Of a stretch of DNA of 64,000 nucleotides, positions 26,708 through 36,832 are shown piece after piece. The notes beneath the pieces are model-generated. The model did no database searches, was not told where the DNA came from, and worked only from the letters and a program-made list of their open reading frames with translations. How positions within the stretch are numbered: the stretch's first letter is position 1; each line of letters starts with the position of its first letter. The position numbers and the translations under genes were made by a program. The DNA is taken from positions 20,856-84,855 of the IMG/VR virus record IMGVR_UViG_3300010367_000012. The stretch is one strand, 5' to 3'. The stretch comes from a virus.

Positions 26708-26779
26708 TCCCCTGTAGCTCAACGGCAGAGCAGTCGACTGTTAATCGACCGGTTGTTGGTTCGAATCCAGCCGGGGGAG
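26708..26779 (+). tRNA. tRNA-Asn(GTT)
   Basis: gtcga-ct GTT aa-tcgac. Confidence 0.93.
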
Positions 26780-26804
26780 CTTGTGCCGTAAGGCACACGA
26801 GCAT

Positions 26805-26956
26805 TGACAGCGATGCGTAGTTGAGAGATACTTCATACAAGGGAAACCGCATGTGAAGGTTCAAATCCTTCCGGCCCGACTCTTCGGGACGTAGCTCAAC
26901 TGGATAGAGCAGTGGTAAATATAAAAGCACTTTCAACGCCCTTTTCTAGCTGTCAA
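26805..26956 (+). ncRNA. Y RNA 1 (YrlA-like, with permuted tRNA module)
   Basis: Terminal stem ttgacagc/gctgtcaa with CGATGCGTAG ... CGCCCTTTTCTAG; internal T arm (gaagg TTCAAAT ccttc), loop-closed acceptor-like stem, then D arm (gctc aactggata gagc). Confidence 0.85.
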
Positions 26957-26966
26957 AACAACTTAA

Positions 26967-27078
26967 TAGCCGATGCGTAGACTTGGGTTACTTCGCAACC
27001 AAATTATATGCGGCCCTTCGGTTCGATTCCAGGGTCAATGGGCTGGTGCCCTTTCCTAAGTCGCCTCTTTCTAGGCTA
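26967..27078 (+). ncRNA. Y RNA 2
   Basis: tagcCGATGCGTAG gacttggg TTACTTC ... cctaagtc GCCTCTTTCTAG gcta; internal T-arm-like GGTTCGATTCC. Confidence 0.8.
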
Positions 27079-27094
27079 ACAATTTAACAAGCTT

Positions 27095-27169
27095 TACCCG
27101 ATGTGCAGGCAACAGTTACTTCTTCAATTATGGTGAAAACAAAGCACTGTAGCCGTTTTTTCTAGGGTA
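27095..27169 (+). ncRNA. Y RNA 3 (minimal, no tRNA module)
   Basis: taccCGATGTGCAG gcaacag TTACTTC ... AAGCA ctgtagc CGTTTTTTCTAG ggta. Confidence 0.75.
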
Positions 27170-27180
27170 TTTATTTTTAC

Positions 27181-27328
27181 GAGTTCCGATGCGTAGTTGG
27201 GGAGTTACTTCTAATTTCCTGCTAAGAAAAAGTTACGGGTTCGAATCCCGTTGCGTCCACTCCTGGGCGTATGGTGTAATTGGCAACACTAAAGAAACCA
27301 CGCTTCACGACGCCTTTTCTAGGAACTC
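27181..27328 (+). ncRNA. Y RNA 4 (YrlA-like, with permuted tRNA module)
   Basis: gagttcCGATGCGTAG ... CGCCTTTTCTAG gaactc; anticodon-like hairpin, T arm acggg TTCGAAT cccgt, closed acceptor-like stem, D arm gtg taattggcaa cac. Confidence 0.85.
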
Positions 27329-27338
27329 AATTTTTGAT

Positions 27339-27372
27339 ACCCTCCGTATTCCGATACTGGAGGGTTTTATTT
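27339..27372 (+). terminator. intrinsic terminator between the Y RNA array and the TROVE gene
   Basis: accctcc-gtattccgatac-tggagggt followed by tttatttt. Confidence 0.6.
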
Positions 27373-27405
27373 TAACTAATGGCGTACCACAACAAGGAGG
27401 ATGGA

Positions 27406-28986
27406 ATGGCTAAGTTCAACAAGACTGTAAAGACTGGTGTTACTTCCCCAGTAAAGTCCGCTAAGACTGCTCTCAATGAGTCTTTCAAGATGGGCTATGA
27501 GCGTGAGAAGAAGAGTGAGCTGTTCCTTCTTGCCGTTTCTAACTTCGTGGGTCAGGACACTTTCTATGAGAGTGCCCAGAAGCGTGATGACCGATTCGCT
27601 AGCCTTGTTCGTGAGGTTGCGGTTCAGGATCAGGCTTGGATCACCGGTTTCGTCAAGTGGCTTCGTAATGATGCCTTCATGCGCTCTGCGTCCATCGTAG
27701 CGGCTGCTGAGGGTGCCAAGGCACTTCTTGACGCAGGAACCATGAACGGCTCTCCTAGGGGCCTTGTAGCGGCTTCTCTAGCCCGTGCTGACGAGCCTGG
27801 TGAGTTCCTGGCGTACTGGACCAACAAGTTTGGCAAGAGTATCCCTGCTTCTGTAAAGAAGGGTGTTGCTGACGGAGCAAAGCGTCTCTACAACGAGTAT
27901 GGTTTGCTTAAGTACGACACCGATTCCAAGGGATTCCGCTTTGCTGACGTCATTCAGTTGACTCACGCTAAGGCTGGAAATGCTACTCAGAACTCTTTGT
28001 TCAAGTATGCTCTTGACCGCCGTTACGGAAATGACGCTGTTCCTGCTGAGTTGAACATGGTGAGCACTCGTGCTAACCTGATGTCTGCTCCTGTAGAGAA
28101 GCGTAAGGCTCTCATTGGTACTGCTGTTGGTCGAGACACGCTCAAGACTGCTGGTATTACCTGGGAAGCTCTTTCCGGATGGCTTCAGGGTCCGATGGAT
28201 AAGCAGGCTTGGGAAGCTGTTATTCCTAACATGGGTTACATGGCATTGCTGCGTAATCTCCGCAACTTCGTAGAGGCTGGTGTATCCAATGAGGTTCTTA
28301 AGGGCGTACTGGCAACACTGTCTGACGCTGGGCAGGTTTCTCGAAGCAAGCAGTTCCCATTCCGATTCCTTGCGGCCTATCAGGCTAACAAGGGAAATCT
28401 GAAGATTGCTGCTGCTCTTGAGGAAGCACTTGAGCACTCCCTTAGCAATGTTCCGTCTCTGACTGGACGTACGCTAATCCTGGTTGACCGCTCAGGTTCT
28501 ATGTTTCAGACTCACCAGAATGACCGTGAGTTGACCATGGCTGATAAGGCTGCTATCTTCGGTTCTGCGCTTGCGCTTCGTGCTGAGGATGCTGACTTGG
28601 TTCAGTTCGGTTCTGCATGGGGTGGACGTAAGCCTTACGAGGCTGTAAACTTCCGTCAGGGAGATTCACTGCTTCCTATGCTTGACAAGTTCCGTGACAT
28701 GGGTGGAACTGACACTCAGGGTGCCGTTCGCGGTAGCTTCAAGGGTCATGACCGCGTTATCATCATCACTGATGAGCAGTACAACGGTTACGGTGGCGAT
28801 CCTCTTTCTGCTGTTCCTGTGAACACTCCGGTGTACACCTGGAACTTGGAAGGGTATCGTGTCGGTCAGAGTCAGTCTGGTTCTAAGAAGCGTCACACCT
28901 TCGGTGGACTTACTGACAAGGGATTCGAGATGATTCCTCTCATCGAGATGGGTCAGTCTCAGAAGTGGCCTTGGGAGAAGAAGTGA
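27406..28986 (+). CDS. rsr: Ro60/Rsr TROVE-domain + vWA ribonucleoprotein
   Basis: ELFLLAVSNF..QDTFYES, LRNDAFMRS, LLKYD, DVIQLTHAK, TWEALSG, MGYMALLRNLRN, SKQFPFRFLAAY, LILVDRSGSM (MIDAS), IIITDEQ, WNLEGY; AAGGAGG SD before ATG 27406. Confidence 0.93.
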   Translation: MAKFNKTVKTGVTSPVKSAKTALNESFKMGYEREKKSELFLLAVSNFVGQDTFYESAQKRDDRFASLVREVAVQDQAWITGFVKWLRNDAFMRSASIVAAAEGAKALLDAGTMNGSPRGLVAASLARADEPGEFLAYWTNKFGKSIPASVKKGVADGAKRLYNEYGLLKYDTDSKGFRFADVIQLTHAKAGNATQNSLFKYALDRRYGNDAVPAELNMVSTRANLMSAPVEKRKALIGTAVGRDTLKTAGITWEALSGWLQGPMDKQAWEAVIPNMGYMALLRNLRNFVEAGVSNEVLKGVLATLSDAGQVSRSKQFPFRFLAAYQANKGNLKIAAALEEALEHSLSNVPSLTGRTLILVDRSGSMFQTHQNDRELTMADKAAIFGSALALRAEDADLVQFGSAWGGRKPYEAVNFRQGDSLLPMLDKFRDMGGTDTQGAVRGSFKGHDRVIIITDEQYNGYGGDPLSAVPVNTPVYTWNLEGYRVGQSQSGSKKRHTFGGLTDKGFEMIPLIEMGQSQKWPWEKK

Positions 28987-32515: not shown

Positions 32516-32593
32516 GGGGCTGGAAGGTTTCGACGTTGGCGAAAGCCGCACGCGGAGCACCAGCGGACCTGGGTTCGATTCCCAGCAGCTCCA
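32516..32593 (+). ncRNA. mini-tmRNA: tRNA-like domain only, no tag reading frame
   Basis: 5' GGGGCTG-GAAGGTTTCGAC and 3' GGAC-CTGGG-TTCGATT-CCCAG-CAGCTCC-A are tmRNA end signatures; G3:U70; P2 cgttgg/ccagcg closes only about 20 nt. Confidence 0.8.
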
Positions 32594-32595
32594 CT

Positions 32596-32672
32596 GGTGC
32601 CGGACCTAGATCACATGGCGTGGTAGCGCTCTGCAAAAGCGTTGGTTCGGGGTTCGATTCCCCTCGGTACCT
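32596..32672 (+). tRNA. tRNA-Cys(GCA)
   Basis: gcgct-ct GCA aa-agcgt; U73; atypical D arm. Confidence 0.8.
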
Positions 32673-32676
32673 CTTT

Positions 32677-32762
32677 GGAAACTTGGCTGAGATGGCTTAA
32701 GGTGCTCGACTGCTAATCGAGTGAAGGTAACACTTCCACGGGTTCGAATCCCGTAGTTTCCG
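32677..32762 (+). tRNA. tRNA-Ser(GCT)
   Basis: ctcga-ct GCT aa-tcgag; long variable arm; G73. Confidence 0.92.
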
Positions 32763-32767
32763 CGCAT

Positions 32768-32851
32768 GGAAGGGAAGCAAATGGTTAGCGGCTACGCTGG
32801 AAACGTAGTGAGGGTTTACCGCCCGAGCGGGTTCGATTCCCGTCCCTTCCG
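32768..32851 (+). tRNA. tRNA-Ser(GGA)
   Basis: ctacg-ct GGA aa-cgtag; long variable arm. Confidence 0.9.
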
Positions 32852-35432: not shown

Positions 35433-35798
35433 ATGACAAACTTCACTACGAAAGATTCTGGATACAGAGAACAATATTCTACGGGTATGCAGCGGGATAC
35501 ACAGGATGGGAAAGCACGGTTTGACTTGCTGTTCCCTTTGGATGTACCCTACTCAGACCAGTTCTTCACACGGATTGCTGAATTGATGACCCGTGGTGCT
35601 GAGAAGTACTATGAGCGTAACTGGGAGAAGGCTATAACTAAGGAAGAAATATCGCGCTTTCGTTCATCGGCTGCACGACATTTCTTTCAATGGATGTCTG
35701 GTGATACTGAAGAAGACCATGCTTCCGCTGTGGTATTTAATCTGCTAGCTTATGAGACCACAGTTTACAAGATAAGCCAACAGGAGGAAGAACAATGA
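35433..35798 (+). CDS. dATP/dGTP diphosphohydrolase N-terminal-domain (DUF5664-like) protein
   Basis: TGMQRD..GKARFDLL, GAEKY..RNWEK, S.ARH, EDHASAVVFN; ATG 35433 in leaderless geometry. Confidence 0.8.
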   Translation: MTNFTTKDSGYREQYSTGMQRDTQDGKARFDLLFPLDVPYSDQFFTRIAELMTRGAEKYYERNWEKAITKEEISRFRSSAARHFFQWMSGDTEEDHASAVVFNLLAYETTVYKISQQEEEQ

Positions 35799-36832
35799 AG
35801 CTGTACGATTTGTTCGGTTATCGAGACTATATGCAGATGCTTGACGAAGGGTATGTGCGAGAGAACTTCCACCCTGAGCTTGATCTGCGTATCATCAACT
35901 ACACGGAGAAGGCACAGTACGACAACGAGTGGAACAAGGTAACTGCTAGGTGCCGTGGCCTTATTATCAGTTCTGATGGCACGATCATTGCACGGCCTTT
36001 CGATAAGTTCCTGAACTACGGGCAGAACCAGGCTGACGTACTTCTTATGGATGAGCCTGTAGTAGTAACCGATAAGATGGATGGTTCACTTGGTATCCTG
36101 TGGAGTTACAAGGGTCAGCAGGGTATTGCGACGCGCGGTTCCTTTACGTCGGAGCAGGCTATTCACGCTACTGCGCTCTGGAAGGAGAAGTACAACTTCC
36201 AGGTAGCTCCGATGTGGACTTATATGTTTGAGATCGTCTATCCTCAGAATCGTATTGTGCTCAACTATGGTGACATGGATGAGCTGGTATTGCTCGGTGT
36301 ACGAGACATTGAGGAAGGCGATGTGTTGCTTCCTAACGAGGTTGTAACGTGGCGTGGTCCTAGGACTCAGACCTTCTCCTACGGGACGCTCAGAGAGGCC
36401 CTAGCGGCTCCTCAGCGGCCTAATGCAGAGGGCTTCGTCGTCTACTTCCCGAACCTTGACTACCGAATCAAGGTGAAGCAGGAGGATTACGTAGCGCTAC
36501 ACAAGATCGTTACAGGCTTGACAAAGCGTCGTGTCTGGGAGAACCTTGTTGAAGGTCAGACTCTAGTAGATCTTATAGAGCTTGTTCCTGATGAGTGGCA
36601 CGCGTGGCTGAAGCGGACATACAATGAGCTGATGTTTGAGTTTGCAGGTATCAAGCAGAAGGTGGCCGTTTCCTACCTTGCCGTGGAACAGGATCTCCCT
36701 ATTGGATTTACTCGTAAAGAGTTCGCAGAAAGAGTAAAGGATATGCCTTATCGGAGTATGCTGTTCGGTATCCTGGACGGTAAGGACATCAATCCTGCGG
36801 TCTGGAAGCTGATTAAACCTAGCGCAGAGTAA
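35795..36832 (+). CDS. ATP-dependent RNA ligase (T4 Rnl1-like)
   Basis: Motif I KMDGSLG; CRGLI..ARPFDKFLNY; FEIVYP.NRIV..Y; EGFVV; RIKVK..DY. Confidence 0.92.
   Translation: MKLYDLFGYRDYMQMLDEGYVRENFHPELDLRIINYTEKAQYDNEWNKVTARCRGLIISSDGTIIARPFDKFLNYGQNQADVLLMDEPVVVTDKMDGSLGILWSYKGQQGIATRGSFTSEQAIHATALWKEKYNFQVAPMWTYMFEIVYPQNRIVLNYGDMDELVLLGVRDIEEGDVLLPNEVVTWRGPRTQTFSYGTLREALAAPQRPNAEGFVVYFPNLDYRIKVKQEDYVALHKIVTGLTKRRVWENLVEGQTLVDLIELVPDEWHAWLKRTYNELMFEFAGIKQKVAVSYLAVEQDLPIGFTRKEFAERVKDMPYRSMLFGILDGKDINPAVWKLIKPSAE

What the first reader, a model, noticed from the sequence alone, without database searches (positions are those of the whole stretch)
27211..27295. Y RNA 4 contains every tRNA arm in circularly permuted order, including a Ser-like anticodon loop
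Seen: tttc-[CT GCT AA]-gaaa (27215-27229), short variable segment, T arm (27235-27251), 3' acceptor strand, ctcc loop, 5' acceptor strand (27252-27271), then D arm. The 7-nt loop CUGCUAA is identical to the anticodon loop of the phage's own tRNA-Ser(GCT). Inference: it arose from a tandem tRNA junction. It cannot be charged but could present an anticodon loop as bait for anticodon nucleases, or be re-processed into a tRNA.
Basis: partly seen in the sequence, partly recalled or inferred. Interest (0 to 1): 0.7.

Follow-up and report, generated by a model that had tools for sequence, protein, structure and literature searches.

The report
Phage Y RNA with anticodon-arm mimic
This is one of four small RNAs that partner the phage's Ro60 protein: it is a tRNA look-alike written in rotated order, a known design (YrlA), and its extra hairpin is a general, apparently unremarked anticodon-arm imitation whose "serine" triplet is a coincidence.

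Summary
In detail: every element is at the stated coordinates, and the loop CTGCTAA equals the anticodon loop of the phage's tRNA-Ser(GCU).

Y RNA 4 (27181-27328) is a YrlA-class Y RNA 78 nt upstream of a TROVE/Ro60 gene. The order T arm, sealed acceptor stem, D arm, the "circularly permuted tRNA" description and the tandem-tRNA origin are already published (Chen 2014; Wang 2018).

The hairpin is the published "V" stem-loop. It is not stable by itself here. Across 154 phage and bacterial YrlA modules, however, it is mostly a 5-bp stem with a 7-nt loop, U33, R37 and A38. A 4-5 nt variable-loop-like spacer follows, and its last base covaries with D-loop position 15. By tRNA numbering it therefore sits at 27-43, the anticodon arm.

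The triplet varies freely (GCU, GUU, GAU, GUG, UGG). Ser identity is therefore chance: about half of family loops match one of this phage's tRNA loops.

GenBank annotates orthologues as tRNA-Ser or tRNA-Arg; covariation rejects that fold.

Unexpectedly, this lineage keeps G1-C72, G2-C71, G3·U70 and A73, the alanine identity set, in its sealed acceptor stem.

The scan has reported similar tRNA-shaped Y RNAs on other DNA.

The parts
27181..27187 (+). Outer (terminal) stem, 5' strand GAGUUCC. It overlaps the Ro60-binding-type motif GUUCCGAUG at 27183-27191.
   Evidence: RNAalifold on 5 orthologues gives 7-8 bp with 27322-27328, with two compensatory changes. The motif resembles GNCGAAN0-1G of Chen 2014.
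27196..27205 (+). Inner closing stem, 5' strand (GUUG.GGAGU). This is the helix that the YrlA literature calls the 'anticodon stem'.
   Evidence: It pairs with 27302-27311. Compensatory changes occur at three pairs.
27205..27211 (+). Conserved YUAC-UUC motif (UUACUUC), shared by all four Y RNAs of the array.
   Evidence: Read. The motif is invariant or nearly so in alignment A4. Chen 2014 describes YUAY as the start of the V loop.
27215..27229 (+). Anticodon-arm look-alike (the published 'V' stem-loop): UUUC / CUGCUAA / GAAA, flanked by an A27214.A27230 mismatch.
   Evidence: Sequence. Family geometry and covariation. The hairpin is weak on its own.
27230..27234 (+). Variable-loop-like spacer (A)AGUU. 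U27234 is the position-48 partner of D-loop A27279 (position 15).
   Evidence: The Levitt-type pair 15:48 is G:C or A:U in 149 of 154 modules.
27235..27251 (+). T arm ACGGG-UUCGAAU-CCCGU.
   Evidence: Seen. Compensatory changes appear.
27252..27271 (+). Sealed acceptor stem UGCGUCC-A-CUCC-U-GGGCGUA. In tRNA numbering it reads G1-C72, G2-C71, G3.U70, A73.
   Evidence: 8 bp. Positions 5:68 to 7:66 covary, while 1-4 and 69-73 are invariant in the lineage.
27272..27289 (+). U8/G9-like UG plus the D arm GUGU-AAUUGGCA-ACAC.
   Evidence: Seen. The D stem covaries.
27290..27301 (+). 3' linker UAAAGAAACCAC between the D arm and the closing stem.
   Evidence: Unpaired in the consensus fold. Predicted family linkers are mostly 5-10 nt (prediction only).
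27302..27311 (+). Inner closing stem, 3' strand.
27322..27328 (+). Outer stem, 3' strand GGAACUC, preceded by the conserved CUUUUCUA.
27340..27373 (+). Imperfect GC hairpin followed by UUUUAUUUU: a terminator-like end of the Y RNA array, before the Ro60 gene.
   Evidence: Read from the sequence. The simple scan missed it because of a bulge.
27406..28986 (+). Ro60/TROVE protein gene (526 aa).
   Evidence: Pfam TROVE scores 57.4 bits against a cut-off of 23. Orthologues are annotated 'Ro-like RNA binding protein'.
32677..32763 (+). Genuine class II tRNA-Ser(GCU), the comparison partner. It is not part of the Y RNA.

Best explanation
Y RNA 4 is a YrlA-class Y RNA, the last of four encoded just upstream of the phage Ro60 gene.

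Its two ends pair into a handle that carries the Ro60-binding-type motif. The middle folds as a five-helix junction:
- closing stem;
- anticodon-arm look-alike;
- T arm;
- sealed acceptor stem;
- D arm.

In tRNA numbering, the chain enters at position 27 and leaves after position 26. The RNA is therefore a whole tRNA body, rotated, with the Ro60 handle attached at the D/anticodon hinge.

It imitates the frame of an anticodon loop (Y32, U33, R37, A38), while the triplet itself is free to drift. The serine look is therefore accidental, and the RNA does not decode.

Shown here: the anatomy, its conservation, its covariation, and the neighbourhood with Ro60.

Inferred by analogy with Yrn1/PNPase and published YrlA work: Ro60 binds the handle, and the tRNA-shaped body recruits or competes for tRNA-recognising proteins such as modification, processing or repair enzymes.
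For: Location and partner: the RNA lies 78 nt upstream of a TROVE gene. The same arrangement is seen in Alone3, GiJojo, pSt2308, BRock and cluster-BE Streptomyces phages.

YrlA core: there is a partial Rfam YrlA hit. The T arm, acceptor stem, D arm and both closing stems keep pairing through compensatory changes.

Family evidence for the hairpin:
- Of 96 non-redundant phage modules, 66 have at least 4 of 5 pairs and 38 have 5 of 5 pairs in the geometry 5-bp stem / 7-nt loop / 4-5 nt spacer. Shuffles give 19% and 2.5%. Other loop lengths almost never give 5 of 5.
- Of 58 bacterial modules, 37 have at least 4 of 5 pairs.
- In a sample chosen only by the 5' TTC, the helix is 83.5% paired. Two pairs change on both sides in 17 and 19 sequences. 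The covariation score for the tested structure (this helix plus the T stem) is 0.489 against 0.169 in shuffles, and 0 of 500 shuffles reach it.
- Loop frame: U33 in 63 of 66, R37 in 63 of 66, A38 in 59 of 66. G36 is followed by G37 in 15 of 21, and U36 by A37 in 33 of 35, as in real tRNAs.
- The spacer's last base pairs Levitt-style with D-loop position 15 in 149 of 154 modules. This places the hairpin at positions 27-43.
- The triplet is free: 22 different triplets occur in the phage set. Positions 34-36 are, with the acceptor loop, the most variable columns in ten orthologues, whereas 32, 33 and 38 are invariant.
Against: - In this phage the hairpin is only 4 A/U-rich pairs and is not predicted to form alone.
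- Within its closest sublineage (window, Alone3, GiJojo, L296) the stem is merely conserved and does not covary.
- GiJojo has an 8-nt loop.
- The solved S. Typhimurium YrlA has no such hairpin and uses the closing stem as its anticodon stem (Wang 2018). Which helix stacks under the D stem here is therefore unknown.
- The Rfam YrlA score is far below the gathering threshold (22.7 against 69 bits).
- There are no expression, binding or modification data.
- The family sample was drawn with a pattern that contains TACTTC and GGTTCGANTCC, so it covers only YrlAs with those motifs.
Confidence: 0.75

Rival explanations
1. The RNA is opened and charged. RNase P would cut the sealed acceptor loop before G27265, the 3' side would be trimmed to A73-C74 and completed to CCA, and AlaRS would charge the resulting two-piece, five-armed tRNA mimic with alanine. 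The result would be an aminoacylated Y RNA.
For: - M. smegmatis YrlA is cut by RNase P and receives CCA in vivo (Chen 2014).
- In the Y4 lineage, G1-C72, G2-C71, G3.U70 and A73 are invariant across two phage clusters, while pairs 5:68 to 7:66 covary.
- In a scan that fixed U70 but not its partner, all 10 true modules had G3 and none had A3.
- Outside the lineage, G3.U70 occurs in only 9 of 141 modules.
- Some relatives encode A73-CCA in the loop, for example L282, L271 and L268.
- N73-CCA occurs in 10 of 154 modules against about 2.4 expected.
Against: - The stem is 8 bp here because A73 pairs with U-1, and the loop reads CUCC, not CCA.
- No cleavage data exist.
- Chen 2014 saw no cleavage of the Salmonella or Deinococcus RNAs.
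- Conservation of GUCCACUCUUGGGC could instead serve another protein.
- The sequences are phylogenetically related, so 10 of 10 is few independent events.
Confidence: 0.12
2. The hairpin is bait or a sensor for host anticodon nucleases. It would present an anticodon loop so that a host tRNA-cutting defence wastes itself on the Y RNA, or so that its cleavage signals damage to the Ro60 and repair machinery.
For: - The loop frame is that of real anticodon loops.
- The phage carries 30 tRNAs, a T4 Rnl1-type RNA ligase (56.4 bits) and, in relatives, phosphoesterases next to the tRNA island.
- In Salmonella, rsr and yrlA share an operon with RtcB/RtcA that responds to cut tRNAs (abstracts of PMC7790460 and PMC10159003).
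- A fast-changing triplet could reflect an arms race.
Against: - A specific decoy should keep its triplet, yet it differs between near-identical orthologues (GCU against GUU).
- The same variable pattern occurs in chromosomal YrlAs of Streptomyces and other bacteria, which are not under phage-defence pressure.
- The stem here is weak.
- No nuclease is known for GCU.
Confidence: 0.07
3. In this phage the hairpin is a decayed relic that no longer forms. Positions 27206-27234 would then be a floppy single-stranded V loop, and only the T, acceptor and D core matters.
For: - The hairpin has MFE 0 kcal/mol alone.
- The MFE of the whole RNA pairs 27199-27207 with 27212-27220 instead.
- There is a 6-nt insertion relative to pSt2308 and BRock, which build the stem from the conserved UUC.
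- The sister RNA Y1 has no hairpin at all.
Against: - After the insertion, a new 4-bp / 7-nt hairpin with the correct loop frame and spacer was retained in window, Alone3 and L296.
- Cluster-BE orthologues keep CUUA/UGAG with a 7-nt loop.
- The competing MFE helix is not conserved in Alone3 or pSt2308.
Confidence: 0.15
4. It is an ordinary tRNA-Ser(GCU) gene at 27187-27260, as ARAGORN and Rfam call it and as GenBank annotates the orthologues.
For: - ARAGORN calls it.
- Rfam tRNA scores 30.8 bits against a gathering score of 29.
- It is annotated tRNA-Ser(gct) in Alone3 and LuckySocke and tRNA-Arg(cct) in GiJojo.
- CGAUGCG can pair with UGCGUCC at 6 of 7 positions.
Against: - The 3' acceptor strand covaries with the downstream strand, not with the 5' motif. 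In pSt2308 UCAGUCC pairs with GGGCUGG and breaks the canonical stem.
- There is no D arm in canonical position.
- There is no long variable arm, which bacterial tRNA-Ser needs.
- The 5' strand is the motif shared by all four Y RNAs.
- ARAGORN of 66 family modules as tRNAs of assorted identities.
Confidence: 0.01

Closest known systems
YrlA (Y RNA-like A; Rfam RF02553; Chen et al. 2014 PMC4201824; Wang et al. 2018 bioRxiv 10.1101/312249, structure 6CU1)
   Same: - It is encoded next to Ro60.
- It has a terminal handle with a Ro-binding-type 5' motif.
- The order is T arm, then closed acceptor stem, then D arm, with tRNA-invariant bases and the 15:48 Levitt covariation.
- It has a conserved YUAY motif.
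[quoted passage not shown]
- YrlA is already described as resembling circularly permuted tRNAs and as probably derived from dimeric tRNA transcripts.
   Different: - The literature equates V with the variable arm and states that (Salmonella) YrlA lacks an anticodon loop. The spacing, stem and loop sizes and loop frame found here place V at tRNA positions 27-43.
- This lineage has an alanine-type acceptor stem (G3.U70, A73).
- The Rfam score is far below the family threshold.
- There are four Y RNAs in tandem in a phage tRNA island.
M. smegmatis YrlA, the RNase P-cleaved, CCA-tailed form (Chen et al. 2014)
   Same: - It is an actinobacterial-type YrlA with a V hairpin.
- It has a 7-bp acceptor stem.
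- A C is encoded after the discriminator.
- It is processed from a precursor with a second Y RNA.
   Different: - Cleavage and CCA addition are shown there and only inferred here.
- Judging from the authors' primer, the V hairpin there looks shorter.
tmRNA tRNA-like domain and tRNA-Ala (AlaRS substrates)
   Same: G1-C72, G2-C71, G3.U70 and A73 in the acceptor helix stacked on a T arm. The phage also carries a tag-less mini-tmRNA at 32516-32596.
   Different: - The acceptor end is sealed by a loop in the primary transcript.
- There is no encoded CCA.
- It has a Ro60 handle and an anticodon-arm look-alike.
Circularly permuted tRNA genes of Cyanidioschyzon merolae and some archaea (cited in Wang 2018)
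   Same: The 3' half comes before the 5' half, and the acceptor stem is initially closed.
   Different: Those are spliced and ligated into decoding tRNAs through a bulge-helix-bulge junction. Here no such motif or enzymes are evident, the break is at 26/27, and the triplet is unconstrained.

Membership tests
YrlA-class Y RNA | Encoded within a few kb of a Ro60/TROVE gene, on the same strand. | tested here: met
   It ends 78 nt before the TROVE gene at 27406-28986. The same holds in all orthologous loci examined.
YrlA-class Y RNA | T arm, then a stem-loop in place of the acceptor stem, then D arm, with tRNA-invariant nucleotides. | tested here: met
   Seen. All three helices covary.
YrlA-class Y RNA | 5' and 3' ends pair into a handle carrying a GNCGAAN0-1G-type Ro-binding motif. 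| tested here: inconclusive
   Two nested stems with compensatory changes are present. The motif is a variant, (U)UCCGAUG, shared by all four Y RNAs. Binding was not tested.
YrlA-class Y RNA | Levitt-type covariation between D-loop position 15 and the last nucleotide before the T stem. | tested here: met
   A27279 with U27234. In the family, 149 of 154 modules have G:C or A:U.
YrlA-class Y RNA | Reaches the Rfam RF02553 gathering score. | tested here: not met
   22.7 bits for model positions 26-82 only, against a threshold of 69. The model is built on V-less, enterobacterial-type handles.
YrlA-class Y RNA | Bound by Ro60, and carries pseudouridine 55 and dihydrouridine. | not testable with these tools
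   Needs immunoprecipitation and modification mapping.
Canonical tRNA-Ser(GCU) | Acceptor stem formed by the 5' and 3' ends and kept by covariation. | tested here: not met
   The 3' strand covaries with the downstream strand. The canonical pairing breaks in pSt2308 and BRock.
Canonical tRNA-Ser(GCU) | D arm between the acceptor and anticodon arms, and the long variable arm of class II tRNAs. | tested here: not met
   No D helix at 27194-27213. The variable region is 4-5 nt. The real tRNA-Ser at 32677-32763 has the long arm.
Canonical tRNA-Ser(GCU) | Covariance-model score above the Rfam tRNA threshold. | tested here: met
   30.8 against 29 bits, the weakest of all tRNA hits in the window. The score is driven by the T arm and the anticodon-like hairpin.
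Anticodon stem-loop (as a structural mimic) | 5-bp stem, 7-nt loop, Y32, U33, R37, followed by a 4-5 nt variable loop and the T stem. | tested here: met
   Family level. In Y4 itself there are 4 bp plus an A.A mismatch, the loop is C-U-GCU-A-A and the spacer is AGUU.
AlaRS substrate (tRNA-Ala / tmRNA type acceptor) | G3.U70 with A73 (and G2-C71) in the acceptor helix. | tested here: met
   G27267.U27256, A27259, G27266-C27257. These are invariant in the lineage.
AlaRS substrate (tRNA-Ala / tmRNA type acceptor) | Free single-stranded NCCA 3' end. | tested here: not met
   The stem is closed by the loop CUCC in the gene. [quoted passage not shown]

The most novel reading that the evidence does not exclude
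Y RNAs of this lineage are complete five-armed tRNA mimics. RNase P would open them, CCA would be added, and AlaRS would charge them with alanine through the conserved G3.U70/A73, while they stay clamped to Ro60 by a handle attached at the D/anticodon hinge. The result would be an aminoacylated Y RNA carrying an anticodon-arm mimic with a free triplet.
Probability: 0.12. Interest if true: 0.8.

Novelty: new member of a known kind. Interest (0 to 1): 0.5.

Why it matters
For this window the result is mostly a clarification. Y RNA 4 is a YrlA-type partner RNA of a phage Ro60, not a tRNA, and its rotated-tRNA layout and proposed tandem-tRNA origin are already in print.

Three points go beyond the papers I could read.

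1. The family's 'V' stem-loop is, by position and shape, an anticodon stem-loop. Its loop frame is under selection and its triplet is free. Many YrlAs are therefore whole rotated tRNAs, not anticodon-less ones. This widens the list of candidate effectors to proteins that read the anticodon arm. It also gives direct sequence support for the dimeric-tRNA origin model.

2. One phage lineage keeps the alanine identity set in its sealed acceptor stem. This makes the old question 'are Y RNAs ever aminoacylated?' testable with a defined RNA.

3. Genome annotators are recording these RNAs as tRNA-Ser or tRNA-Arg genes, which inflates phage tRNA inventories.

Tried and rejected
- **Single-sequence folding.** The MFE of the whole RNA, of the hairpin alone and of 66 family members (exact hairpin in 11) is not decisive for short A/U stems in multi-helix junctions.
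- **Longest-contiguous-stem search.** It picked spurious G.U-rich alternatives. I replaced it with a fixed-geometry test with shuffles.
- **MAFFT alignment A2.** It mis-registered sequences with 4-nt and 5-nt spacers and was not used for counting. The gapless alignment A4 was used instead.
- **Rotating the modules into canonical tRNA order and running ARAGORN.** 81 of 96 were called, but so were 73 of 96 with a shuffled arm, so the test does not discriminate.
- **Linker lengths from constrained folding.** They are suggestive: a 5-10 nt 3' linker where a tRNA has 1 nt. The contrast with hairpin-less modules was noisy, so I treat this as weak.
- **Recent copying from a resident tRNA.** Same-locus tRNAs with the same triplet share only the loop and not the stems, so this was rejected.
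- **Gene conversion with tRNA-Ser(GCU).** The T arm is identical in the window and the T stem is identical in pSt2308, but both differ in Alone3, GiJojo and BRock. That is 2 of 5, and it remains unexplained.
- **The search for related loci with the Ro60 protein.** It gave only 4 loci.
- **Sim and Wolin 2018.** The review could not be fetched, so I cannot exclude that it already likens V to an anticodon arm. No text held in Chen 2014, Wang 2018 or later papers that mention YrlA does so.

Full report
**What is in the sequence**

The window is from a Streptomyces-phage-type genome. It has 30 ARAGORN tRNA calls and a tag-less mini-tmRNA.

A TROVE/Ro60 gene lies at 27406-28986 (Pfam TROVE 57.4 bits). 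Upstream of it lie four units. Each begins with a motif like CCGAUGCGUAG...UUACUUC and ends with CUUUUCUAGG.

The fourth unit, 27181-27328, is the finding.
- hairpin UUUC/CUGCUAA/GAAA at 27215-27229;
- spacer to 27234;
- T arm at 27235-27251;
- sealed acceptor hairpin at 27252-27271;
- UG plus the D arm at 27272-27289.

The genuine tRNA-Ser(GCU) at 32677-32763 has the same 7-nt loop. It also has the same 17-nt T arm.

**What tools call it**

ARAGORN and Rfam call 27187-27260 a canonical tRNA-Ser(GCU). The Rfam score is 30.8 bits against a threshold of 29. GenBank annotates the orthologue as tRNA-Ser(gct) in Alone3 and LuckySocke and as tRNA-Arg(cct) in GiJojo.

That fold uses the shared 5' Y RNA motif as an acceptor strand, and it is wrong for three reasons:
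- In pSt2308 and BRock the 3' strand changes together with the downstream strand, and the canonical pairing breaks.
- There is no D arm in canonical position.
- There is no long variable arm.

Rfam YrlA (RF02553) gives sub-threshold hits to unit 1 (26.6 bits) and to 27230-27290 of unit 4 (22.7 bits).

RNAalifold on five orthologues gives an outer stem 27181-27187/27322-27328 and an inner stem 27196-27205/27302-27311. It also gives the T arm, an 8-bp acceptor hairpin and the D arm. 16 of the 36 pairs are kept through changes on both sides.

**What is already known**

Chen et al. 2014 described YrlA RNAs next to Ro60 in more than 250 bacteria and phages. They reported T, AS (acceptor-like) and D stem-loops. 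[quoted passage not shown]

Wang et al. 2018 solved the Salmonella YrlA. They say that most YrlAs 'likely resemble circularly permuted tRNAs', that YrlA 'lacks the anticodon loop', and that the RNAs may derive from dimeric tRNA transcripts.

The permuted order and the tandem-tRNA origin are therefore not new. The flagged hairpin is the V stem-loop.

**Is the hairpin real, and what is it?**

Alone it is not convincing. It has four A/U-rich pairs and MFE 0 kcal/mol, and it is absent from the full-length MFE.

Orthologues keep a hairpin of the same size at the same place with other sequences:
- UUCU/AUGAUGC/AGAA in pSt2308;
- UUCA/AUGAUAA/UGAA in BRock;
- CUUA/CUGUGAA/UGAG and relatives in cluster-BE phages;
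- UUCA/CUGGAAA/UGAA in an IMG/VR contig.

To widen the sample I scanned IMG/VR and one genome per prokaryote species for TACTTC-N15-30-GGTTCGANTCC. I kept only hits followed by a closed hairpin, U[AG] and a D arm. This gave 96 phage and 58 bacterial non-redundant modules.

Geometry:
- With a fixed geometry of 5-bp stem, 7-nt loop and 4-5 nt spacer, 66 of 96 phage modules have at least 4 of 5 pairs. 38 have 5 of 5. Shuffles give 19% and 2.5%.
- Loops of 4, 5, 6, 8, 9 or 10 nt give 5 of 5 in at most 3 modules.
- 37 of 58 bacterial modules behave likewise. They include Streptomyces, Kitasatospora, Amycolatopsis, Nocardia, Rhodococcus, Lachnospiraceae and Acidobacteria.

Covariation:
- In a sample chosen only by the 5' TTC at a fixed distance (57 sequences, gapless alignment A4), the helix is 83.5% paired.
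- Its two variable pairs change on both sides in 17 and 19 sequences.
- The covariation score for the tested structure (this helix plus the T stem) is 0.489. Shuffles give 0.169 (0 of 500 reach the observed value), and slid partners give at most 0.146.

Loop frame:
- It is that of an anticodon loop: U33 in 63 of 66, Y32 in 54 of 66, R37 in 63 of 66, A38 in 59 of 66.
- The 36-37 coupling matches real tRNAs. G36 is followed by G37 in 15 of 21, and U36 by A37 in 33 of 35.

Position in tRNA numbering:
- The spacer resembles variable loops (AGGUC, UGGUC, AGUU).
- Its last base forms the Levitt-type pair with D-loop position 15 in 149 of 154 modules.
- By tRNA numbering the spacer is therefore 44-48 and the hairpin is 27-43, which is the anticodon arm.
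- A class II variable arm would sit inside 44-48, with only one or two nucleotides before the T stem.

I found no statement of this in the papers I could read. One review (Sim and Wolin 2018) was not available.

**The serine look**

The triplet is not conserved:
- GUU in the close IMG/VR orthologue L296;
- an 8-nt loop in GiJojo;
- GAU, GUG, UGG or AUG in others;
- 22 different triplets in the phage set.

In ten actinobacterial orthologues, positions 34-36 are, with the acceptor loop, the most variable columns of the whole RNA. Positions 32, 33 and 38 are invariant.

Because the loops look like anticodon loops, 28 of 63 phage-set and 20 of 37 bacterial-set family loops from other genomes are identical to one of this phage's 29 tRNA loops. 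Identity with tRNA-Ser therefore carries no extra meaning.

GCU in a short-variable-loop context also cannot be a copy of a class II tRNA-Ser. Same-locus tRNAs with the same triplet share only the loop, not the stems. A Ser-specific decoy is thus not supported.

**Topology and mechanism**

The RNA is best drawn as a five-helix junction. The Ro60 handle leaves the tRNA body between position 26 (after the D stem) and position 27 (the start of the hairpin).

Constrained folding predicts a 3' linker of mostly 5-10 nt, where a tRNA and the Salmonella YrlA have 1 nt. The control comparison was noisy, so this is weak evidence.

Which helix stacks on the D stem cannot be decided here.

By analogy with Yrn1/PNPase and the published YrlA work, I infer that Ro60 binds the handle and that the tRNA-shaped body recruits or competes for tRNA-recognising proteins. 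None of this is shown for this RNA.

**An unexpected feature**

In tRNA numbering the sealed acceptor stem reads G1-C72, G2-C71, G3.U70, C4-G69 and A73. The first C of the loop follows.
- These positions are invariant in all 13 members of the lineage from two phage clusters, whereas 5:68 to 7:66 covary.
- In a scan that fixed U70 but left its partner free, all 10 true modules had G3 and none had A3.
- Outside the lineage, G3.U70 occurs in 9 of 141 modules.

G3.U70 with A73 is the established alanine identity set of tRNA-Ala and tmRNA.

M. smegmatis YrlA is cut by RNase P and gains CCA in vivo (Chen 2014). Some relatives encode A73-CCA in the loop. N73-CCA occurs in 10 of 154 modules against about 2.4 expected.

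The statement that the RNA 'cannot be charged' is therefore not safe. Opening and alanylation is a minority hypothesis (about 0.12) but a testable one.

**Context**

A terminator-like hairpin with a U run (27340-27373) separates the array from the Ro60 gene. A T4 Rnl1-type RNA ligase lies at 35795-36832.

Earlier notes of this scan on the same window list the four-unit array, an RNA-repair toolkit and the mini-tmRNA. Notes on other genomes describe similar tRNA-shaped Y RNAs, one with an 'almost freely variable' anticodon.

**Verdict**

Y RNA 4 is a new member of the known YrlA kind.

Its 'anticodon arm' is real at family level and better named so than 'variable arm'. The Ser identity and the bait idea are not supported.

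The alanine-type acceptor stem and the annotation errors are the most useful by-products.

Noticed in passing
L001:1507-1580 (Alone3 gene 36), L002:1507-1581 (GiJojo gene 29), L011:962-1023 (Sham gene 97): GenBank records annotate the Y RNA 4 orthologue as tRNA-Ser(gct), tRNA-Arg(cct) and tRNA-Ser(cga). ARAGORN of 66 family modules as tRNAs of assorted identities. Phage tRNA inventories are therefore inflated by Y RNAs.
   Followed up: yes
window 27252-27271 and orthologues (L001-L010, L019, L264, L276, L302, L306, L406): The sealed acceptor stem keeps G1-C72, G2-C71, G3.U70, C4-G69 and A73 (the alanine identity set), plus the loop ACUCYU. The lower three pairs covary.
   Followed up: partly
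L187, L188, L152, L092, L255, L257 and others; L282, L271, L268: 10 of 154 YrlA modules encode N73-CCA right after the seventh acceptor pair, inside the closing loop. That is about four times the chance expectation and includes chromosomal Streptomyces YrlAs. It hints that opening by RNase P is commoner than the single published case.
   Followed up: partly
window 27235-27251 vs 32738-32754; L014 (pSt2308): The Y4 T arm is identical to the tRNA-Ser(GCU) T arm in the window. In pSt2308 both carry the different stem CAGGG/CCCTG. They do not match in Alone3, GiJojo or BRock. Chance or occasional exchange; unexplained.
   Followed up: partly
window 26811-26950 (Y1), 26970-27068 (Y2), 27099-27168 (Y3): Y1 is a second YrlA-type RNA without the anticodon-like hairpin (Rfam YrlA 26.6 bits). 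Y2 keeps only a T-loop-like GGUUCGAUUCC. Y3 has no tRNA part. All four share CGAUGYGYAG and UUACUUC, so UUACUUC is a handle motif rather than a tRNA relic.
   Followed up: partly
window 32768-32851: Rfam finds a tRNA (37.8 bits) that ARAGORN missed. Its loop CTGGAAA indicates tRNA-Ser(GGA), as annotated at the same place in Alone3 and GiJojo.
   Followed up: no
L015:1310-1420: In one IMG/VR relative (Ro60 71% identical) the Y4 orthologue keeps the anticodon-like hairpin, the T arm and a closed hairpin, but has lost the D arm.
   Followed up: no
window 26708-26780: In every phage of this group, tRNA-Asn(GUU) immediately precedes the Y RNA array. The commonest Y RNA hairpin in the family (UUCGA-CUGUUAA-UCGAG) differs from an actinobacterial-type tRNA-Asn anticodon arm only at the outermost pair.
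   Followed up: no
window 35795-36832; L012 19832-23323: A T4 Rnl1-type RNA ligase (Pfam 56.4 bits) and, in relatives, a phosphoesterase lie at the far end of the tRNA island. This is a heal-and-seal context for the Ro60/Y RNA set.
   Followed up: partly
window 26804-26832: A promoter-like TTGACA-17-GATACT overlaps the start of Y1. The word CTTGAC recurs before or after Y RNAs in the related phages.
   Followed up: no
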